In this document: positions 1,909 through 57,157 of the stretch, piece by piece
Position numbering within the stretch: the stretch's first letter is position 1
Layout: each line of letters begins with the position of its first letter
Source: Escherichia phage vB_EcoM-E33
Sequence record: OL780484.1
Length of the DNA stretch: 64,000 nt
Direction: 5' to 3' (one strand)
Made by a program: the position numbers and the translations under genes
The notes under the pieces: generated by a model
What the model was told of the DNA's origin: nothing
Databases searched by the model: none
What the model saw: only the letters and a program-made list of their open reading frames with translations

Positions 1909-2293
1909 TGAATTTATCGCAGAGAATGTAATTCCTGCATCTAAAGAACTTTTGGCGATGTTTGAATCTGAAGAGTTCACTGAAGAACTGAATGAGAACC
2001 TGACCCAGGCCACTCCTCAGGTTATTCGCGTTCGTAATGCCCTTCAGACAGGCATGCAGGCTCGTGTATCTAAGACTATGAAGCTGGCATTCACCACTTC
2101 TAAAAATGAAGACTATGGTGATGGTATTGCAATGAACACTGGGCAGTATTATGTTGAGTGGAATGGTGAAACCGGTACTGCTAAGATTCGCCAAACGAGA
2201 GCAGCGGGTGGCAAAATGTTGGACCTTAAACTGAACGTTAAAGAGAAAGACGTCGCGGCTTTGTTCAAGAATTGGATGAAGACTTACAAATAA
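1895..2293 (+). CDS. internal head protein (Ip) with capsid targeting sequence
   Basis: N-terminus [10 protein letters not shown] matches the T4 internal-protein capsid targeting sequence; 132 aa. Confidence 0.65.
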
Positions 2294-2343
2294 GTTTACA
2301 TCTCCTGTAGTCATGATACTATAGACCTATCAACTACAGGAGA
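2294..2343 (+). promoter_or_regulatory. early promoter (GTTTAC 2294-2299, TACTAT 2317-2322) with 10-bp inverted repeat TCTCCTGTAG/CTACAGGAGA covering the denV SD
   Basis: -35/-10 spacing 17 with TG extended -10; arms at 2301-2310 and 2334-2343. Confidence 0.6.
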
Positions 2344-2349
2344 TTAAAA

Positions 2350-2766
2350 ATGACTCGTATCAACCTTACCTTAGTATCTGAATTGGCTGACCAACACTTA
2401 ATGGCTGAATATCGTGAATTACCACGTGTTTTCGGTGCAGTTCGTAAGCATGTTGCTAATGGTAAACGTGTCCGTGATTTCAAAATCAGTCCTACTTTTA
2501 TCCTTGGCACAGGCCATGTTACATTCTTTTACGATAAGCTTGAATTTTTACGTAAGCGACAAATTGAGCTTATAGCCGAATGTTTAAAACGTGGTTTTAA
2601 TATCAAGGATACTACTGTCCAGGACATTAGTGACATTCCTCAGGAATTCCGTGGTGACTATACTCCACACGAAGCTTCTATTGCTATATCTCAGGCCCGT
2701 TTGGACGAAAAAATTGCACAACGCTCTACCTGGTACAAACATTACGGCAAGGCTATTTACGCTTAA
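2350..2766 (+). CDS. denV: endonuclease V (pyrimidine dimer DNA glycosylase)
   Basis: 138 aa; near-identical to remembered T4 endonuclease V ([28 protein letters not shown]...). Confidence 0.95.
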
Positions 2767-54700: not shown

Positions 54701-54751
54701 GTTTACTTCTCCTCATGACATGATATTATCTACCCTATCAACATGAGGAGA
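54701..54751 (+). promoter_or_regulatory. early promoter (GTTTAC, TG-n-TATTAT) with 10-bp inverted repeat TCTCCTCATG/CATGAGGAGA covering the SD
   Basis: Arms at 54708-54717 and 54742-54751; differ in sequence from 2301/2334 but keep complementarity. Confidence 0.6.
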
Positions 54752-54756
54752 ACAAA

Positions 54757-55266
54757 ATGAAAATTTATCGAGTGGAGTCATCGTTCAGTATCTTAGATAA
54801 CAGCGATGTTATAGCAATCACTCACCAACAGTGCCGCCAATTAACACCGTATAGAGGCTCGTTTGATGAATGGAGCGAAGGTTGGTTATTAGAAGTAGGT
54901 TTCGACAAACCTAATTTTAGACACCACCATACCAATAATAAAAATATTCCACTACCAGGTCAAGACAAGTTGTTGGTGGAAAATTCTAATAAAACCATTC
55001 GAACTAAGTGGAACCAGCCTGATTATGAAGGCTGTGATGATTATATTCCAGGTTGGTTTGTTAATCTCTACCATTTTGCTTTTGCCAGTGAGTATGATAT
55101 GATGCGCTGGTTCACTCGTGAAGAGCGTGAAGAATTATCTTCTAAAGGATTCTATCTTGCCGTTTACGAAATCCCTGAAGATGAGGTTGTCATTGGTGGC
55201 CACCAAGTAATGTTCCGCAAATCCCATGCTGAACTCGTAGATTTTATTGAATTGAGAACAATATGA
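54757..55266 (+). CDS. hypothetical protein
   Basis: 169-aa ORF. Confidence 0.45.
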   Translation: MKIYRVESSFSILDNSDVIAITHQQCRQLTPYRGSFDEWSEGWLLEVGFDKPNFRHHHTNNKNIPLPGQDKLLVENSNKTIRTKWNQPDYEGCDDYIPGWFVNLYHFAFASEYDMMRWFTREEREELSSKGFYLAVYEIPEDEVVIGGHQVMFRKSHAELVDFIELRTI

Positions 55267-55811
55267 AATTTAATTACAACCCTAAATACACCCCGAATCC
55301 GGCAGCTAAACTGATTGATTTTGATGTTTTAAGCACTTATGTATGCCCTGTTAAACCACTGGAAATTAAGGAACCTGCTATGAATACTCAGACTATCGAA
55401 ATCGGCAAAACCTACAAACTGGTTGAACCTGAAATTAAAACTAAGGCCTTGATTTCTGGCCATAAAACTCTGACTGAGGTTTTTGGCGAAGGCGAATTTA
55501 TTGTTGAAGAATTTACCAAAAGTGACTGGTTTACTAAATCTTACGTCATCCACGGCCGTCGATTAGATAATAACAAAATAGAGAAAATCTTGGTTTATGA
55601 AGATGAGTTCATCCTGTTCCAAGAAGTTGAAGAACAAGAACCTACCGACCTTCTGTGTGCTGCTGTGTCTATCCGTCGTCCTTTTGATAATCCTATCTGT
55701 GGTTGGGTAACAGACCAGTGGGTTGAAGACGGTGTTGAGCTGCTGAACGTTGTACATGCTGGTGATTTTAGCGTAGTACCTCGTAGTGCAGTGGTTAATG
55801 TATTGAATTAG
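55263..55811 (+). CDS. hypothetical protein (paralog A)
   Basis: C-terminal TDQWVEDGVELLNVVHAGDFSVVP shared with the next gene. Confidence 0.45.
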   Translation: MKFNYNPKYTPNPAAKLIDFDVLSTYVCPVKPLEIKEPAMNTQTIEIGKTYKLVEPEIKTKALISGHKTLTEVFGEGEFIVEEFTKSDWFTKSYVIHGRRLDNNKIEKILVYEDEFILFQEVEEQEPTDLLCAAVSIRRPFDNPICGWVTDQWVEDGVELLNVVHAGDFSVVPRSAVVNVLN

Positions 55812-55813
55812 TA

Positions 55814-55849
55814 GTTTACTTTATCGAGAGCCATGTTATAATGGCTCTC
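55814..55849 (+). promoter_or_regulatory. early promoter (GTTTAC ... TATAAT) inside inverted repeat GAGAGCCAT/ATGGCTCTC
   Basis: -35 55814-55819, -10 55837-55842. Confidence 0.5.
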
Positions 55850-55884
55850 ATGGAGAATAAACTTATTAACCAAGAGAGAAAATT

Positions 55885-56436
55885 ATGATTACTATCGGTG
55901 AAATTGTTCGTGTATCCAAAGAATCTCGCTCAAAAGCCGCGGGTCGTTTTGTTGAAGTTGCTGGTATTCGTACTAATTTAGTAGGTGGAATTAAAGAAGT
56001 TAAAGTGCGTATTATTCCTAAAAATGGCCAGACTGAAACTCAATTCGCTTATGTGCATCCTAAATTCCTGGAATCAACTGAATTCACTGGACACATCGCT
56101 CCTGTAGTTGAAGAAGTTGAATCCCATGATGGGTATGTATGTGAAAGCAATGATATCCGTGGCGTAGTAGCTCAAGACGTTGAAACTATTGACCAATCTC
56201 ATGTTGGTGTTGATTTCAAATGGAAATTAGGTAAAGGTGTCTTTTTCGTTTCACCTAAACCGTTTGAATACAATTGCAAGTATGGTCCGACTTATGAAAC
56301 CACTAGTATGTCCGGTTACATCACAGACCAATGGGTTGAAGAAGGTGTTAAGCTGTATAACATCGTGTTCCTTGGCACCTTTAAAGTAGTTCCTGAAAGT
56401 TTTATTGTTGAGTACGCTGATATTCATTTTGCATAA
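55885..56436 (+). CDS. hypothetical protein (paralog B)
   Basis: C-terminal TDQWVEEGVKLYNIVFLGTFKVVP shared with the previous gene. Confidence 0.45.
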   Translation: MITIGEIVRVSKESRSKAAGRFVEVAGIRTNLVGGIKEVKVRIIPKNGQTETQFAYVHPKFLESTEFTGHIAPVVEEVESHDGYVCESNDIRGVVAQDVETIDQSHVGVDFKWKLGKGVFFVSPKPFEYNCKYGPTYETTSMSGYITDQWVEEGVKLYNIVFLGTFKVVPESFIVEYADIHFA

Positions 56437-56448
56437 AGTTTAAAAACA

Positions 56449-56478
56449 GTATACAACAGGGTAGTAGTGTGATACTAT
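56449..56478 (+). promoter_or_regulatory. early promoter (GTATAC ... TGATACTAT)
   Basis: -10 56473-56478. Confidence 0.45.
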
Positions 56479-56508
56479 TACCCTATCAACAAATGAGAGG
56501 AAAATAAA

Positions 56509-56727
56509 ATGGCTAAAGTTACTGTGAACTCGACTCGTGAAGAATTTGAAGATGTTCTGTTCAACCCTGATTTAATCGTGGTTCAAAAGGAACATTCTGA
56601 TACGTTTTCTCATTTATCGTCGGTTTATGTATACGAAAACCAAGGTGATGAAAACCCTATCTATGCGGTGTTCCGTGAAATCACTGCTGAAGGCACCGAC
56701 TTCTGGAAGGAAACTTATAATGCTTAA
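56509..56727 (+). CDS. hypothetical protein
   Basis: 72-aa ORF. Confidence 0.4.
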   Translation: MAKVTVNSTREEFEDVLFNPDLIVVQKEHSDTFSHLSSVYVYENQGDENPIYAVFREITAEGTDFWKETYNA

Positions 56728-57157
56728 TCAAGAACTTGAATTTGAAAAAGGTAAATGGTACTATTTTAAAGATGATGCGGCAGAAGCTGAATTCCGTAAG
56801 CTGAATTCCCATAATATTAGGAATCCTAATAATTCTTCTATAGCAGATATCATTGTCAATTCTGAAGGTTTTTGCCCTGTTAGATTAGCGGCAGGTTATG
56901 TGATGAACGTGGACTTGGCTTATGGTGATAACACTGATATGGTTTTATATCCAAGCGAGCGTAAATTCTTTACGGAAATGGTTGTAGTTGACAGTGAAGA
57001 CGAATGGGCCGAAGATGGTTTCTCTGAAGACGAAGACACGTCTGAAGATGCAGCTCCATTCGAACCGAGTGATTTTCCTTTAACTAAAATCACTATCTCT
57101 AATAATTCTGAAGCCTGGTCAGTTTTCCAGATGTTGAAAGCTCACTTTAAGGAATAA
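56720..57157 (+). CDS. hypothetical acidic protein
   Basis: 145 aa from ATG 56720. Confidence 0.4.
   Translation: MLNQELEFEKGKWYYFKDDAAEAEFRKLNSHNIRNPNNSSIADIIVNSEGFCPVRLAAGYVMNVDLAYGDNTDMVLYPSERKFFTEMVVVDSEDEWAEDGFSEDEDTSEDAAPFEPSDFPLTKITISNNSEAWSVFQMLKAHFKE

What the first reader, a model, noticed from the sequence alone, without database searches (positions are those of the whole stretch)
55263..56436. Tandem paralog pair with shared C-terminal module
ORFs 55263-55811 and 55885-56436 share a C-terminal block (TDQWVE[DE]GV[EK]L.N[IV]V..G.F.VVP.S..V) but have different N-termini and are separated by their own promoter. This looks like duplication followed by divergence, a pattern common for host-interaction or anti-defence genes.
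Basis: seen in the sequence. Interest (0 to 1): 0.4.

Follow-up and report, generated by a model that had tools for sequence, protein, structure and literature searches.

The report
Known T4-type motB.1/motB gene pair
The two neighbouring genes are motB.1 and motB of a T4-like coliphage, which share one small C-terminal beta-barrel domain joined to unrelated N-terminal domains; this relationship is real but was already published for T4 and its relatives.

Summary
ORF 55263-55811 and ORF 55885-56436 share a C-terminal block: 19/34 identical residues, BLASTP E 3e-11, 14 SD above shuffles. At profile level the match covers the whole ~55-residue C-terminal domain (hhalign 98.8%, E 7e-17). A conserved early-promoter/stem-loop lies between the two ORFs.

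The window is a JS98-like Dhakavirus. The genes are motB.1 (phrog_2333) and motB (Pfam PF17613, E 1e-51), in T4 synteny between dexA and cef/goF/gene 39. Patterson-West et al. 2021 already reported that MotB and MotB.1 share a CTD, differ in the NTD, and probably arose by duplication. Kim et al. 2025 described the MotB.1 NTD as a GoF-like LSm/SH3 barrel. The finding is therefore already known.

- The shared domain looks SH3/Tudor-like and acidic, so it is more likely a protein-contact module than the DNA-binding surface.
- Klebsiella Marfaviruses carry a single gene at this site, with a MotB-type KOW head and a MotB.1-type CTD. This favours duplication followed by replacement of the N-terminal domain.
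- The module occurs only twice in the window, and the family is small (17 clusters at 50% identity).
- The T4 reference motB.1 is truncated inside this module by one extra G that is absent from every resequenced T4.

Interest is low.

The parts
54702..54757 (+). Early-promoter-like site upstream of motB.2 (TTTACT-N16-TATTAT, TG extension). It lies inside an inverted repeat, 54702-54717 / 54742-54757, whose 3' arm covers the motB.2 Shine-Dalgarno sequence GAGGAG. It probably drives the motB.2-motB.1 unit.
54757..55266 (+). motB.2 (169 aa, phrog_1106). Its stop overlaps the motB.1 start (ATGA), so the two genes look co-transcribed and translationally coupled.
   Evidence: JS98 annotation
55263..55811 (+). 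ORF1 = motB.1, JS98/Dhakavirus type, 182 aa. It matches phrog_2333 over its full length (E 1.9e-86). It matches Pfam motB only over residues 141-177.
55263..55388 (+). motB.1 leader, aa 1-42, predicted disordered (pLDDT below 50). It contains the recurrent linker motif LIDFDVLSTYVCPVKPLEIK. Some homologues (141 aa, e.g. PP01 MotB.1) start at the equivalent of Met40 (55380), which is preceded by AAGGAA.
55389..55634 (+). motB.1 N-terminal domain, aa 43-124: a beta-barrel with two helices. It has a weak sequence link to the GoF family (LSm/SH3-like in the literature).
   Evidence: phrog_622, E 1.8e-6; hhalign E 0.0012, probability 19%; PMC12152347
55650..55805 (+). motB.1 C-terminal barrel, aa 130-181, homologous to the MotB CTD. 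The BLASTP core block is aa 145-178, 55695-55796.
55815..55849 (+). Intergenic early-promoter/stem-loop (PeSL-like): -35 TTTACT at 55815-55820 and -10 TATAAT at 55837-55842. The -10 starts in the 6-nt loop and runs into the 3' arm of the 9-bp hairpin GAGAGCCAT/ATGGCTCTC (55826-55834 / 55841-55849).
   Evidence: consensus TTTACW-N17-TAYWAT in PMC4122927
55885..56436 (+). ORF2 = motB, 183 aa. Pfam PF17613 at 175.5 bits (cut-off 25); phrog_1671 E 6.5e-70; 49% identical to the T4-type MotB cluster.
55885..56076 (+). MotB N-terminal KOW-type barrel, aa 1-64. It is basic (net +5, pI 10.1) and is the likely DNA-binding head.
   Evidence: PMC7827196 section 3.1
56077..56196 (+). MotB acidic linker, aa 65-104, disordered in the model (pLDDT about 30). 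Its length varies among homologues.
56224..56418 (+). MotB C-terminal barrel, aa 114-178, homologous to the MotB.1 CTD, with an 11-residue insertion between strands 1 and 2. The BLASTP core block is aa 142-175, 56308-56409.
56458..56484 (+). Second intergenic hairpin (AGGGTAGTAGT / ACTATTACCCT) between motB and cef. By eye, -35-like and -10-like elements surround it, but the promoter scan did not list a site here, so it counts only as a hairpin.
56509..57157 (+). cef (56509-56727) and goF (probable start 56720, end 57157). goF encodes the barrel family to which the motB.1 N-terminal domain is distantly related.

Best explanation
Identity and origin. The two ORFs are the early genes motB.1 and motB of a JS98-like T4-type phage (Dhakavirus). 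They are partial paralogues. Both end in the same ~55-residue, five-stranded small beta-barrel. The heads differ: MotB has a basic KOW-type barrel followed by an acidic disordered linker, and MotB.1 has a disordered leader followed by a GoF-like (LSm/SH3-like) barrel. The most likely history starts from a single ancestral gene with a KOW head and this CTD, as still seen in Klebsiella Marfaviruses. That gene was duplicated in the coliphage Tevenvirinae. The motB copy kept the KOW head and diverged in the CTD (loop insertion, charge swaps E->K and R->E). The motB.1 copy kept an almost invariant CTD but had its head replaced by one or more GoF-type barrels. motB.2-motB.1 and motB are separate early transcription units. 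Each is preceded by an early promoter embedded in a stem-loop, the PeSL arrangement known to flank shuffled modules in T4-type genomes.

Function (shown elsewhere). T4 MotB is an abundant, toxic, sequence-nonspecific DNA-binding protein. It spreads on DNA, alters H-NS footprints and de-represses H-NS-silenced genes.

Function (inferred here, about 0.4). The basic KOW head is the nucleic-acid-binding part. The shared acidic CTD is a protein-protein contact module, either for self-association and cooperativity or for docking on a common partner. In that reading, the two genes attach different nucleic-acid-binding heads to one shared contact module.

The confidence figure below refers to identity and evolutionary origin, not to the inferred role of the CTD.
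For: Identity:
- 97.9% DNA identity to phage PSD2002 and 91.6% to JS98, where the same ORFs are annotated motB.2, motB.1, motB, cef, goF, 39.2, 39.1 and 39.
- Pfam motB at 175.5 bits for ORF2 and 35.9 bits (CTD only) for ORF1. phrog_2333 E 1.9e-86 for ORF1 and phrog_1671 E 6.5e-70 for ORF2.

Shared domain:
- BLASTP E 3e-11, z = 14 against shuffles, hhalign 98.8% / E 6.7e-17 over 52 columns.
- The module occurs exactly twice in the window.

Structure:
- AF2 models give confident all-beta CTDs in both proteins (block pLDDT 79-92, bar the last few residues, in MotB from residue 111, and 80-86 in MotB.1 from residue 131), with the same strand order and a short helix between strands 4 and 5.

Origin:
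- Marfa and Potts1 have one gene between dexA and cef, with a KOW head, the linker motif and a MotB.1-type CTD.
- Other representatives have KOW heads with intermediate CTDs.
- MotB.1 relatives carry one barrel, two barrels or an extra domain on an invariant CTD.
- RB69-like loci have three copies of the module.

Promoter and stem-loop: (93.8% of cells paired against 35-46% when slid; 5 of 9 pairs changed on both sides).

Charge: the shared block is net -4 in MotB.1 and -2 in MotB. The MotB head is +5 with pI 10.1. MotB.1 as a whole has pI 4.8.

Literature: PMC7827196 (shared CTD, duplication proposed); PMC12152347 (MotB.1, GoF and Frd.2 NTD barrels); PMC6070864 (spreading on DNA 'perhaps through protein-protein cooperativity').
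Against: - No experiment assigns DNA binding to either MotB domain. PMC7827196 predicts the CTD to be an OB-fold that could bind DNA.
- The T4 MotB CTD is near neutral (+1), so the charge argument is weaker for T4 than for this phage.
- The direction of evolution rests on one outgroup genus plus unnamed metagenomic representatives. A secondary fusion in Marfavirus is not excluded.
- The sequence link between the motB.1 head and GoF is weak (hhalign probability 19%).
Confidence: 0.85

Rival explanations
1. Plain tandem duplication of a whole gene, followed by sequence divergence along its full length. In this view the N-termini are also homologous but have diverged beyond recognition.
For: The genes are adjacent, on the same strand and of almost the same length (182 and 183 aa). 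Both N-terminal domains are small beta-barrels of the broad SH3-like class.
Against: There is no sequence or profile similarity outside the CTD. The MotB head is a KOW motif conserved from Marfavirus to T4. The MotB.1 head has two helices, matches the GoF phrog instead, and is exchangeable, duplicated or preceded by other domains in close relatives while the CTD stays nearly invariant. KOW-head proteins with a MotB.1-type CTD exist.
Confidence: 0.07
2. The shared CTD is the nucleic-acid-binding (OB-fold-like) domain. Both MotB and MotB.1 would then be DNA- or RNA-binding proteins through it, and the heads would provide specificity or partners.
Confidence: 0.25
3. There was no local duplication. 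The CTD module was brought into one of the two genes by recombination with a copy from another phage, through modular shuffling between promoter/stem-loop cassettes or short homologies, so adjacency is secondary.
For: PeSL-like cassettes flank the genes, and these are proposed to mediate shuffling (PMC2839356, PMC4122927). MotB.1 head type does not follow genus: loci L013-L015 combine a T4-type MotB with the 180-aa MotB.1 type. A 43-aa deletion fusion of the motB.2 start to the CTD tail exists (P0295).
Against: Every one of 19 loci examined has the MotB.1-type block directly upstream of the MotB-type block. The outgroup has a single gene at exactly this site. Local duplication is therefore the simpler account. 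Shuffling explains the heads better than it explains the CTD.
Confidence: 0.1
4. The similarity is a chance or low-complexity match between unrelated ORFs.
For: None beyond the short length of the block.
Against: E 3e-11, z = 14, hhalign E 6.7e-17, and both ORFs pass the Pfam motB gathering threshold.
Confidence: 0.01

Closest known systems
T4 MotB (Pfam PF17613, phrog_1671), a modifier of transcription / phage nucleoid-associated protein
   Same: ORF2 matches over its full length (175.5 bits). It has the same KOW-like head and the same CTD, the same position between motB.1 and cef, and its own early promoter. It is 49% identical to the T4-type MotB cluster.
   Different: ORF2 is 183 aa against 162 aa in T4. 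The extra length is an acidic insertion in the disordered linker (VESHDGYVCESNDIRGVVAQD), also present in other Dhakavirus-type MotB. ORF2 is acidic overall (pI 5.4), whereas T4 MotB has pI 9.2. DNA binding and H-NS effects have been shown only for T4 MotB.
T4 MotB.1 (NP_049627; 'Category 2/4' MotB.1 proteins of Patterson-West et al. 2021; phrog_2333)
   Same: Same position immediately upstream of motB. The CTD is nearly identical (DPTDLLC...GWVTDQW(I/V)EDGVELLNVVHAG...VVPRSAVV), with 66% identity over ORF1 residues 104-182.
   Different: ORF1 has a 42-residue leader and a head only about 45% identical or less to the T4 head. T4 MotB.1 as annotated in the reference genome is 119 aa and lacks strands 3-5 of the CTD because of one extra G. 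Resequenced T4 encodes 143 aa.
GoF / Frd.2 LSm-like barrel family of Tevenvirinae (Kim et al. 2025, PMC12152347)
   Same: The ORF1 head (aa 44-126) hits the GoF phrog (phrog_622, E 1.8e-6) and aligns co-linearly with the goF gene 0.9 kb downstream. The AF2 model is a five-stranded barrel with helices.
   Different: GoF and Frd.2 have other C-terminal domains and lack the MotB CTD. Profile-profile support is weak (probability 19%).
PeSL (promoter-early stem-loop) cassettes of T4-type phages (Arbiol et al. 2010; Comeau et al. 2014)
   Same: The promoter matches the published T4/PST consensus TTTACW-N17-TAYWAT. It is combined with a stem-loop and sits between small early genes in a plastic region (PMC4122927).
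   Different: Here the -10 hexamer lies in the loop and 3' arm of the hairpin. Terminator activity and a role in recombination are not shown.
Eukaryotic and bacterial tandem small-barrel readers (53BP1 tandem Tudor, Spt5/NusG KOW, eIF5A/EF-P)
   Different: Sequence identity is only 9-19%. No aromatic-cage or ribosome/RNAP-binding function is implied. This is a fold resemblance, not family membership.

Membership tests
MotB (Pfam PF17613 / phrog_1671) | Full-length match to the family profile above the curated cut-off | tested here: met
   ORF2 scores 175.5 bits against a cut-off of 25, E 9.7e-52, and phrog_1671 E 6.5e-70 over residues 1-183. ORF1 passes the cut-off (35.9 bits), but only through profile positions 117-153 of 162, so it is not a full-length member.
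MotB (Pfam PF17613 / phrog_1671) | N-terminal KOW-type barrel (motif G.I..VS..SRSKAAG) | tested here: met
MotB (Pfam PF17613 / phrog_1671) | Conserved genome position: dda-dexA-motB.2-motB.1-motB-cef-goF-39.2-39.1-39 | tested here: met
   JS98; T4.
MotB (Pfam PF17613 / phrog_1671) | Nonspecific DNA binding, toxicity, and alteration of H-NS binding | not testable with these tools
   Shown only for T4 MotB (PMC6070864, PMC7827196). Note that ORF2 is acidic overall.
MotB.1 (phrog_2333; Patterson-West 2021 categories 2-4) | MotB.1-type CTD (DPTDLLC...GWVTDQW.EDGVELLNVVH.G) that is closer to MotB.1 than to MotB | tested here: met
   ORF1 residues 126-182. phrog_2333 E 1.9e-86 over the full length. 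Signature residues E159/L161/H165/R174, as in 165 MotB.1-type clusters, against K/Y/F/E in 119 MotB clusters.
MotB.1 (phrog_2333; Patterson-West 2021 categories 2-4) | Gene immediately upstream of motB | tested here: met
   and 57 (19 of 19 loci).
MotB.1 (phrog_2333; Patterson-West 2021 categories 2-4) | N-terminal LSm-like five-stranded barrel related to GoF and Frd.2 | tested here: inconclusive
PeSL promoter-early stem-loop cassette | Early promoter consensus (TTTACW-N17-TAYWAT for T4/PST-type phages) | tested here: met
   TTTACT-N16-TATAAT with TG at 55815-55842 (GTTTAC-N17 if read one base earlier). Conserved in 16 loci. Annotated as a promoter in wV7.
PeSL promoter-early stem-loop cassette | Associated stem-loop conserved as a structure | tested here: met
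   9-bp perfect stem at 55826-55849. On 9 distinct sequences, 93.8% of cells are paired against 35-46% when slid, 5 of 9 pairs change on both sides, and 0 of 500 shuffles reach the covariation score.
PeSL promoter-early stem-loop cassette | Acts as terminator or recombination site | not testable with these tools
   No run of T follows the stem, and the terminator scan did not list it.
SH3-like small barrel (Tudor/KOW/chromo class) for the shared CTD | Five antiparallel strands with a short 3-10 helix between strands 4 and 5, and structural matches to members | tested here: inconclusive
OB-fold (cold-shock DNA-binding), the published prediction for the MotB CTD | Five-stranded barrel with a helix between strands 3 and 4, and OB-fold structural neighbours | tested here: inconclusive

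The most novel reading that the evidence does not exclude
The almost invariant acidic CTD is a dedicated association module. MotB (KOW head on DNA) and MotB.1 (LSm-like head, possibly on RNA) would use it to self-associate, to hetero-associate with each other, or to dock on one common host partner. The pair would then form a two-headed early takeover complex on the nucleoid. The family-wide charge swap (E159/R174 in MotB.1 against K156/E171 in MotB) would mark a complementary interface rather than an internal salt bridge.
Probability: 0.15. Interest if true: 0.45.

Novelty: already known. Interest (0 to 1): 0.15.

Why it matters
On its own this finding matters little. It rediscovers, in a JS98-like phage, the motB.1/motB relationship published in 2021.

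The useful residue is practical.
- The domain that the two proteins share is the one part whose function nobody has assigned. The data here suggest it is not the DNA-binding surface, so domain-dissection experiments on MotB are well defined.
- The MotB.1 protein studied so far appears to be the 119-aa product of the T4 reference sequence. That product lacks three of the five strands of this domain because of a single extra base found in no resequenced T4. Negative results obtained with it may therefore need repeating with the 143-aa protein.
- The single-copy KOW + MotB.1-type-CTD gene of Klebsiella Marfaviruses gives a simple outgroup for how small-barrel modules are recombined in the plastic early regions of T4-type genomes.

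Tried and rejected
1. Gene conversion between the two copies. In the window, 15 of 19 identical residues use identical codons (8 expected from window codon usage, P about 7e-4). T4 has only 10 of 18 and JS98 12 of 18. Over 19 genomes, within-genome codon identity (0.56) barely exceeds between-genome identity (0.52), permutation p = 0.027, and the test is confounded by lineage. This is not enough to claim concerted evolution.

2. Sequence proof that the motB.1 head is a GoF paralogue. hhalign gives E 0.0012 at probability 19%. goF is merely the best non-self hit of a head profile in the window, E 0.66. Left as weak support for the published structure-based claim.

4. Solved structures by sequence: none for either family, even at E up to 1.

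5. Wider distribution. An exhaustive phmmer search of 1.84 billion representatives found only 17 clusters. BFVD Foldseek returned family members plus weak tandem-barrel matches. No link to defence or anti-defence families was seen.

6. Son et al. 2021 (NAR, PMC8450097) could not be read because it is not held. Nothing in this report depends on its content beyond its title, as cited in PMC12152347.

7. A second BLASTP segment (FNYNPKYTPN against FEYNCKYGPT, E 0.092) was dismissed as not significant.
Full report
**1. What is in the sequence**

The window carries two + strand ORFs exactly as described: 55263-55811 (182 aa) and 55885-56436 (183 aa). The first ORF starts at an ATGA overlap with the upstream ORF 54757-55266. 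A 73-nt spacer separates the two ORFs.

BLASTP of the two products gives one significant segment. It has 19/34 identities and 26/34 positives with no gaps, E 3e-11, joining ORF1 145-178 to ORF2 142-175. Nothing else is significant. The local alignment score is 109, against 31.9 +/- 5.4 (maximum 60) for 2000 shuffles. An HMM of the domain also hits only these two (E 2.5e-31 and 2.2e-30).

**2. What the genes are**

The region is 97.9% identical to Escherichia phage PSD2002 and 91.6% identical to JS98, the type Dhakavirus (Straboviridae, Tevenvirinae).

In JS98 the same ORFs are annotated dda, dexA.1, dexA, motB.2, motB.1, motB, cef, goF-like, 39.2, 39.1 and 39. T4 has the same order.

- ORF2 is MotB: Pfam PF17613 at 175.5 bits (cut-off 25) and phrog_1671 E 6.5e-70.
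- ORF1 is MotB.1: phrog_2333 E 1.9e-86 over its full length. It matches Pfam motB only through profile positions 117-153.

**3. This relationship is already published**

Patterson-West et al. 2021 (PMC7827196, section 3.2 and discussion) make four relevant statements:
[quoted passage not shown] - 40 other genomes, including Dhakavirus, carry both genes.
- RB69 has extra copies.

Kim et al. 2025 (PMC12152347) describe the MotB.1 NTD, with GoF and Frd.2, as an LSm/SH3-like barrel. They report no phenotype for a T4 motB.1 deletion. A full-text search finds only these two papers mentioning motB.1. The finding is therefore a rediscovery.

**4. Extent and nature of the shared module**

Profile-profile comparison of a 30-sequence MotB.1 alignment with a 37-sequence MotB alignment extends the homology to 52 columns. 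These cover ORF1 130-181 and ORF2 114-178, with an 11-residue insertion in MotB (probability 98.8%, E 6.7e-17). The whole C-terminal domain is therefore shared, not only the 34-residue core.

The AF2 models are as follows.

| Protein | Mean pLDDT | N-terminal part | Middle | C-terminal domain |
|---|---|---|---|---|
| MotB | 71 | barrel, residues 1-63 | disordered linker 66-104 | confident all-beta domain, residues 105-183 (block pLDDT 79-92 from residue 111) |
| MotB.1 | 73 | disordered 1-42 | barrel with two helices, 43-121 | all-beta CTD, 126-182 |

In both CTDs the last strands run strand, strand, strand, short helix, strand. By my own knowledge this is the SH3-like arrangement rather than that of an OB fold, where the helix lies between strands 3 and 4.

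**5. Distribution and history**

The family is small. An exhaustive phmmer search of 1.84 billion representatives finds 17 clusters at 50% identity.

In 19 loci (this window, T4 and 17 IMG/VR contigs), a MotB.1-type block always lies directly upstream of a MotB-type block. RB69-like loci have a third copy.

Within MotB.1 the CTD is almost invariant (GWVTDQW.EDGVELLNVVH), while the front of the protein varies:
- 141-aa forms start at the equivalent of Met40 of ORF1.
- T4-type heads are about 45% identical to the ORF1 head.
- 251-aa forms have two barrels in tandem.
- 245-250-aa forms have an extra N-terminal domain.
- The short motif (I/V)D(F/M/T)D(V/I/L)xS(T/M/A)Y..P..P sits before the barrel in some forms and after it in others.

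Several representatives combine a MotB-type KOW head with a MotB.1-type or intermediate CTD. In Klebsiella phages Marfa and Potts1 the syntenic interval dexA - small ORF - X - cef - goF contains a single gene X. It has a KOW head, the linker motif and a MotB.1-type CTD.

The simplest reading starts from an ancestral KOW + CTD gene that was duplicated in the coliphage lineage. The motB copy then diverged in its CTD, through a loop insertion and coupled E->K and R->E changes. These signatures are E,L,H,R in 165 clusters and K,Y,F,E in 119 clusters, with no mixed charge combinations. The motB.1 copy replaced its head with GoF-type barrels.

The head of ORF1 hits the GoF phrog (E 1.8e-6) and aligns co-linearly with the goF gene 0.9 kb downstream, but only weakly (hhalign E 0.0012, probability 19%).

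**6. Promoter**

The spacer holds TTTACT-N16-TATAAT with a TG extension (10 of 12 positions). This matches the published T4/PST PeSL consensus TTTACW-N17-TAYWAT (PMC4122927). The -10 starts in the loop of a perfect 9-bp hairpin and runs into its 3' arm.

Across nine distinct spacers from three phage groups the promoter hexamers are conserved and the stem covaries. 93.8% of cells are paired against 35-46% in slid controls, 5 of 9 pairs change on both sides, and 0 of 500 shuffles reach the covariation score. Phage wV7 annotates a promoter at the same place.

A similar promoter and inverted repeat precede motB.2, and another hairpin follows motB. 'Separated by their own promoter' is thus supported bioinformatically but not experimentally.

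**7. How it most likely works**

Shown in the literature for T4 MotB (PMC6070864, PMC7827196):
- It is an abundant early protein that is toxic when expressed alone.
- It binds DNA tightly without sequence specificity and appears to spread, 'perhaps through protein-protein cooperativity'.
- It alters H-NS footprints and de-represses part of the H-NS regulon.

Inferred here: in this phage the KOW head is strongly basic (+5, pI 10.1). The shared block is acidic in both proteins (-4 in MotB.1, -2 in MotB), and MotB.1 is acidic throughout (pI 4.8).

I therefore favour a division of labour, at about 0.4. The heads would bind nucleic acid (KOW on DNA; the LSm-like head perhaps on RNA). The shared CTD would be a protein-contact module, either for self-association and cooperativity or for a common partner. 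The main rival, at about 0.25, is the published suggestion that the CTD itself binds nucleic acid.

**8. Verdict**

No anti-defence evidence was found. Novelty: already known. Interest: low.

The most useful by-product concerns T4 itself. The reference genome NC_000866.4 / AF158101.6 has ATTGGAAGAT where 13 other T4, T4T, RB55 and RB59 records have ATTGAAGAT. This truncates MotB.1 at 119 aa (...DQWIGRWR*) in the middle of the shared module. The intact 143-aa protein is seen on 256 contigs, while the 119-aa cluster is seen on 2.

The 2025 study quotes 13.8 kDa, NC_000866.4 coordinates and synthetic genes. Its heterologous MotB.1 was therefore probably the truncated form. Neither paper mentions a frameshift.

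Noticed in passing
L002 (T4 NC_000866.4) 2292-2651 minus strand; compare L003 (OZ035787.1) 412-843: The T4 reference sequence (NC_000866.4 / AF158101.6) has one extra G (ATTGGAAGAT against ATTGAAGAT) inside motB.1. This ends the protein at 119 aa (...GWVTDQWIGRWR*), and the last 28 residues of the shared CTD lie in the +1 frame. Thirteen other T4, T4T, RB55 and RB59 records lack the G and encode 143 aa. The 143-aa protein is on 256 contigs, while the 119-aa cluster is on 2. The published MotB.1 work (13.8 kDa, synthetic gene from NC_000866.4) probably used the truncated form. Neither paper mentions this.
   Followed up: yes
window 55815-55849: The early promoter between motB.1 and motB has its -10 hexamer in the loop and 3' arm of a 9-bp hairpin. 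The stem differs between Dhakavirus, T4-type and VR-type phages, but stays paired through compensatory changes (PeSL-like cassette).
   Followed up: yes
window 54702-54757: Upstream of motB.2, a 16-nt inverted repeat (88% complementary) has a promoter-like -10 (TATTAT) between its arms, and its 3' arm covers the motB.2 Shine-Dalgarno GAGGAG. Read-through transcripts could fold and mask the ribosome-binding site. Transcripts started at this promoter would lack the 5' arm. This logic is known for some T4 genes (from my own knowledge).
   Followed up: partly
window 56458-56484: An 11-bp hairpin (one G-T pair) lies between motB and cef. By eye, GTTTAA and a TG-extended GATACT surround it, suggesting a third promoter/stem-loop cassette. 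The promoter scan did not list it.
   Followed up: no
window 55311-55370 (ORF1 aa 17-36); also P0256, P0265, P0268, P0290-P0297, L023 2237-2671: A short conserved motif, (I/V)D(F/M/T)D(V/I/L)xS(T/M/A)Y..P..P(L), recurs in this family at different places: before the barrel in ORF1, between barrel and CTD in other MotB.1 types, and between KOW head and CTD in Klebsiella-phage proteins. It lies in predicted disorder, so it could be a linear binding motif or a recombination scar.
   Followed up: partly
L022 2276-2653 (Klebsiella phage Marfa); L023 2237-2671 (Potts1): Marfaviruses have a single gene at the motB.1/motB position. It combines the MotB-type KOW head with a MotB.1-type CTD, which looks like the likely pre-duplication architecture.
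   Followed up: yes
proteins P0029, P0083, P0272, P0277, P0284, P0295: MotB.1 relatives of 245-251 aa carry either an additional N-terminal ~80-aa domain or two GoF-like barrels in tandem. A 43-aa product (P0295) fuses the first 14 residues of MotB.2 to the last 28 residues of the CTD, i.e. a deletion across motB.2-motB.1. This may correspond to the '29-aa peptide' category reported for RB69.
   Followed up: partly
window 55737 and 55782 (ORF1 E159, R174) against 56350 and 56395 (ORF2 K156, E171): Two positions of the shared barrel are charge-swapped between the families: E...R in all 170 MotB.1-type and hybrid clusters except one (which has V in place of R), and K...E in all 119 MotB clusters, with no mixed combination. 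This could be a reversed salt bridge or a complementary interface. It is confounded by the two-clade phylogeny.
   Followed up: partly
window 55695-55796 against 56308-56409: At the 19 residues identical in the two blocks, 15 use the same codon (8 expected, P about 7e-4). This includes a 30-nt stretch with only 3 mismatches. T4 shows no such excess, and the 19-genome test is only marginal (p = 0.027). This may reflect an old short-patch conversion in Dhakaviruses.
   Followed up: partly
window 56627-57157: The mechanical ORF for goF starts at 56627 and overlaps cef by 100 nt. The JS98 annotation and homologues indicate a start at 56720 (ATG overlapping the end of cef), giving a 145-aa protein.
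   Followed up: partly
window 56077-56196 (ORF2 aa 65-104): This phage's MotB carries an acidic ~20-30-residue insertion in the disordered linker (VESHDGYVCESNDIRGVVAQD) that is absent from 163-aa and T4-type MotB. It makes the whole protein acidic (pI 5.4, against 9.2 for T4 MotB).
   Followed up: no
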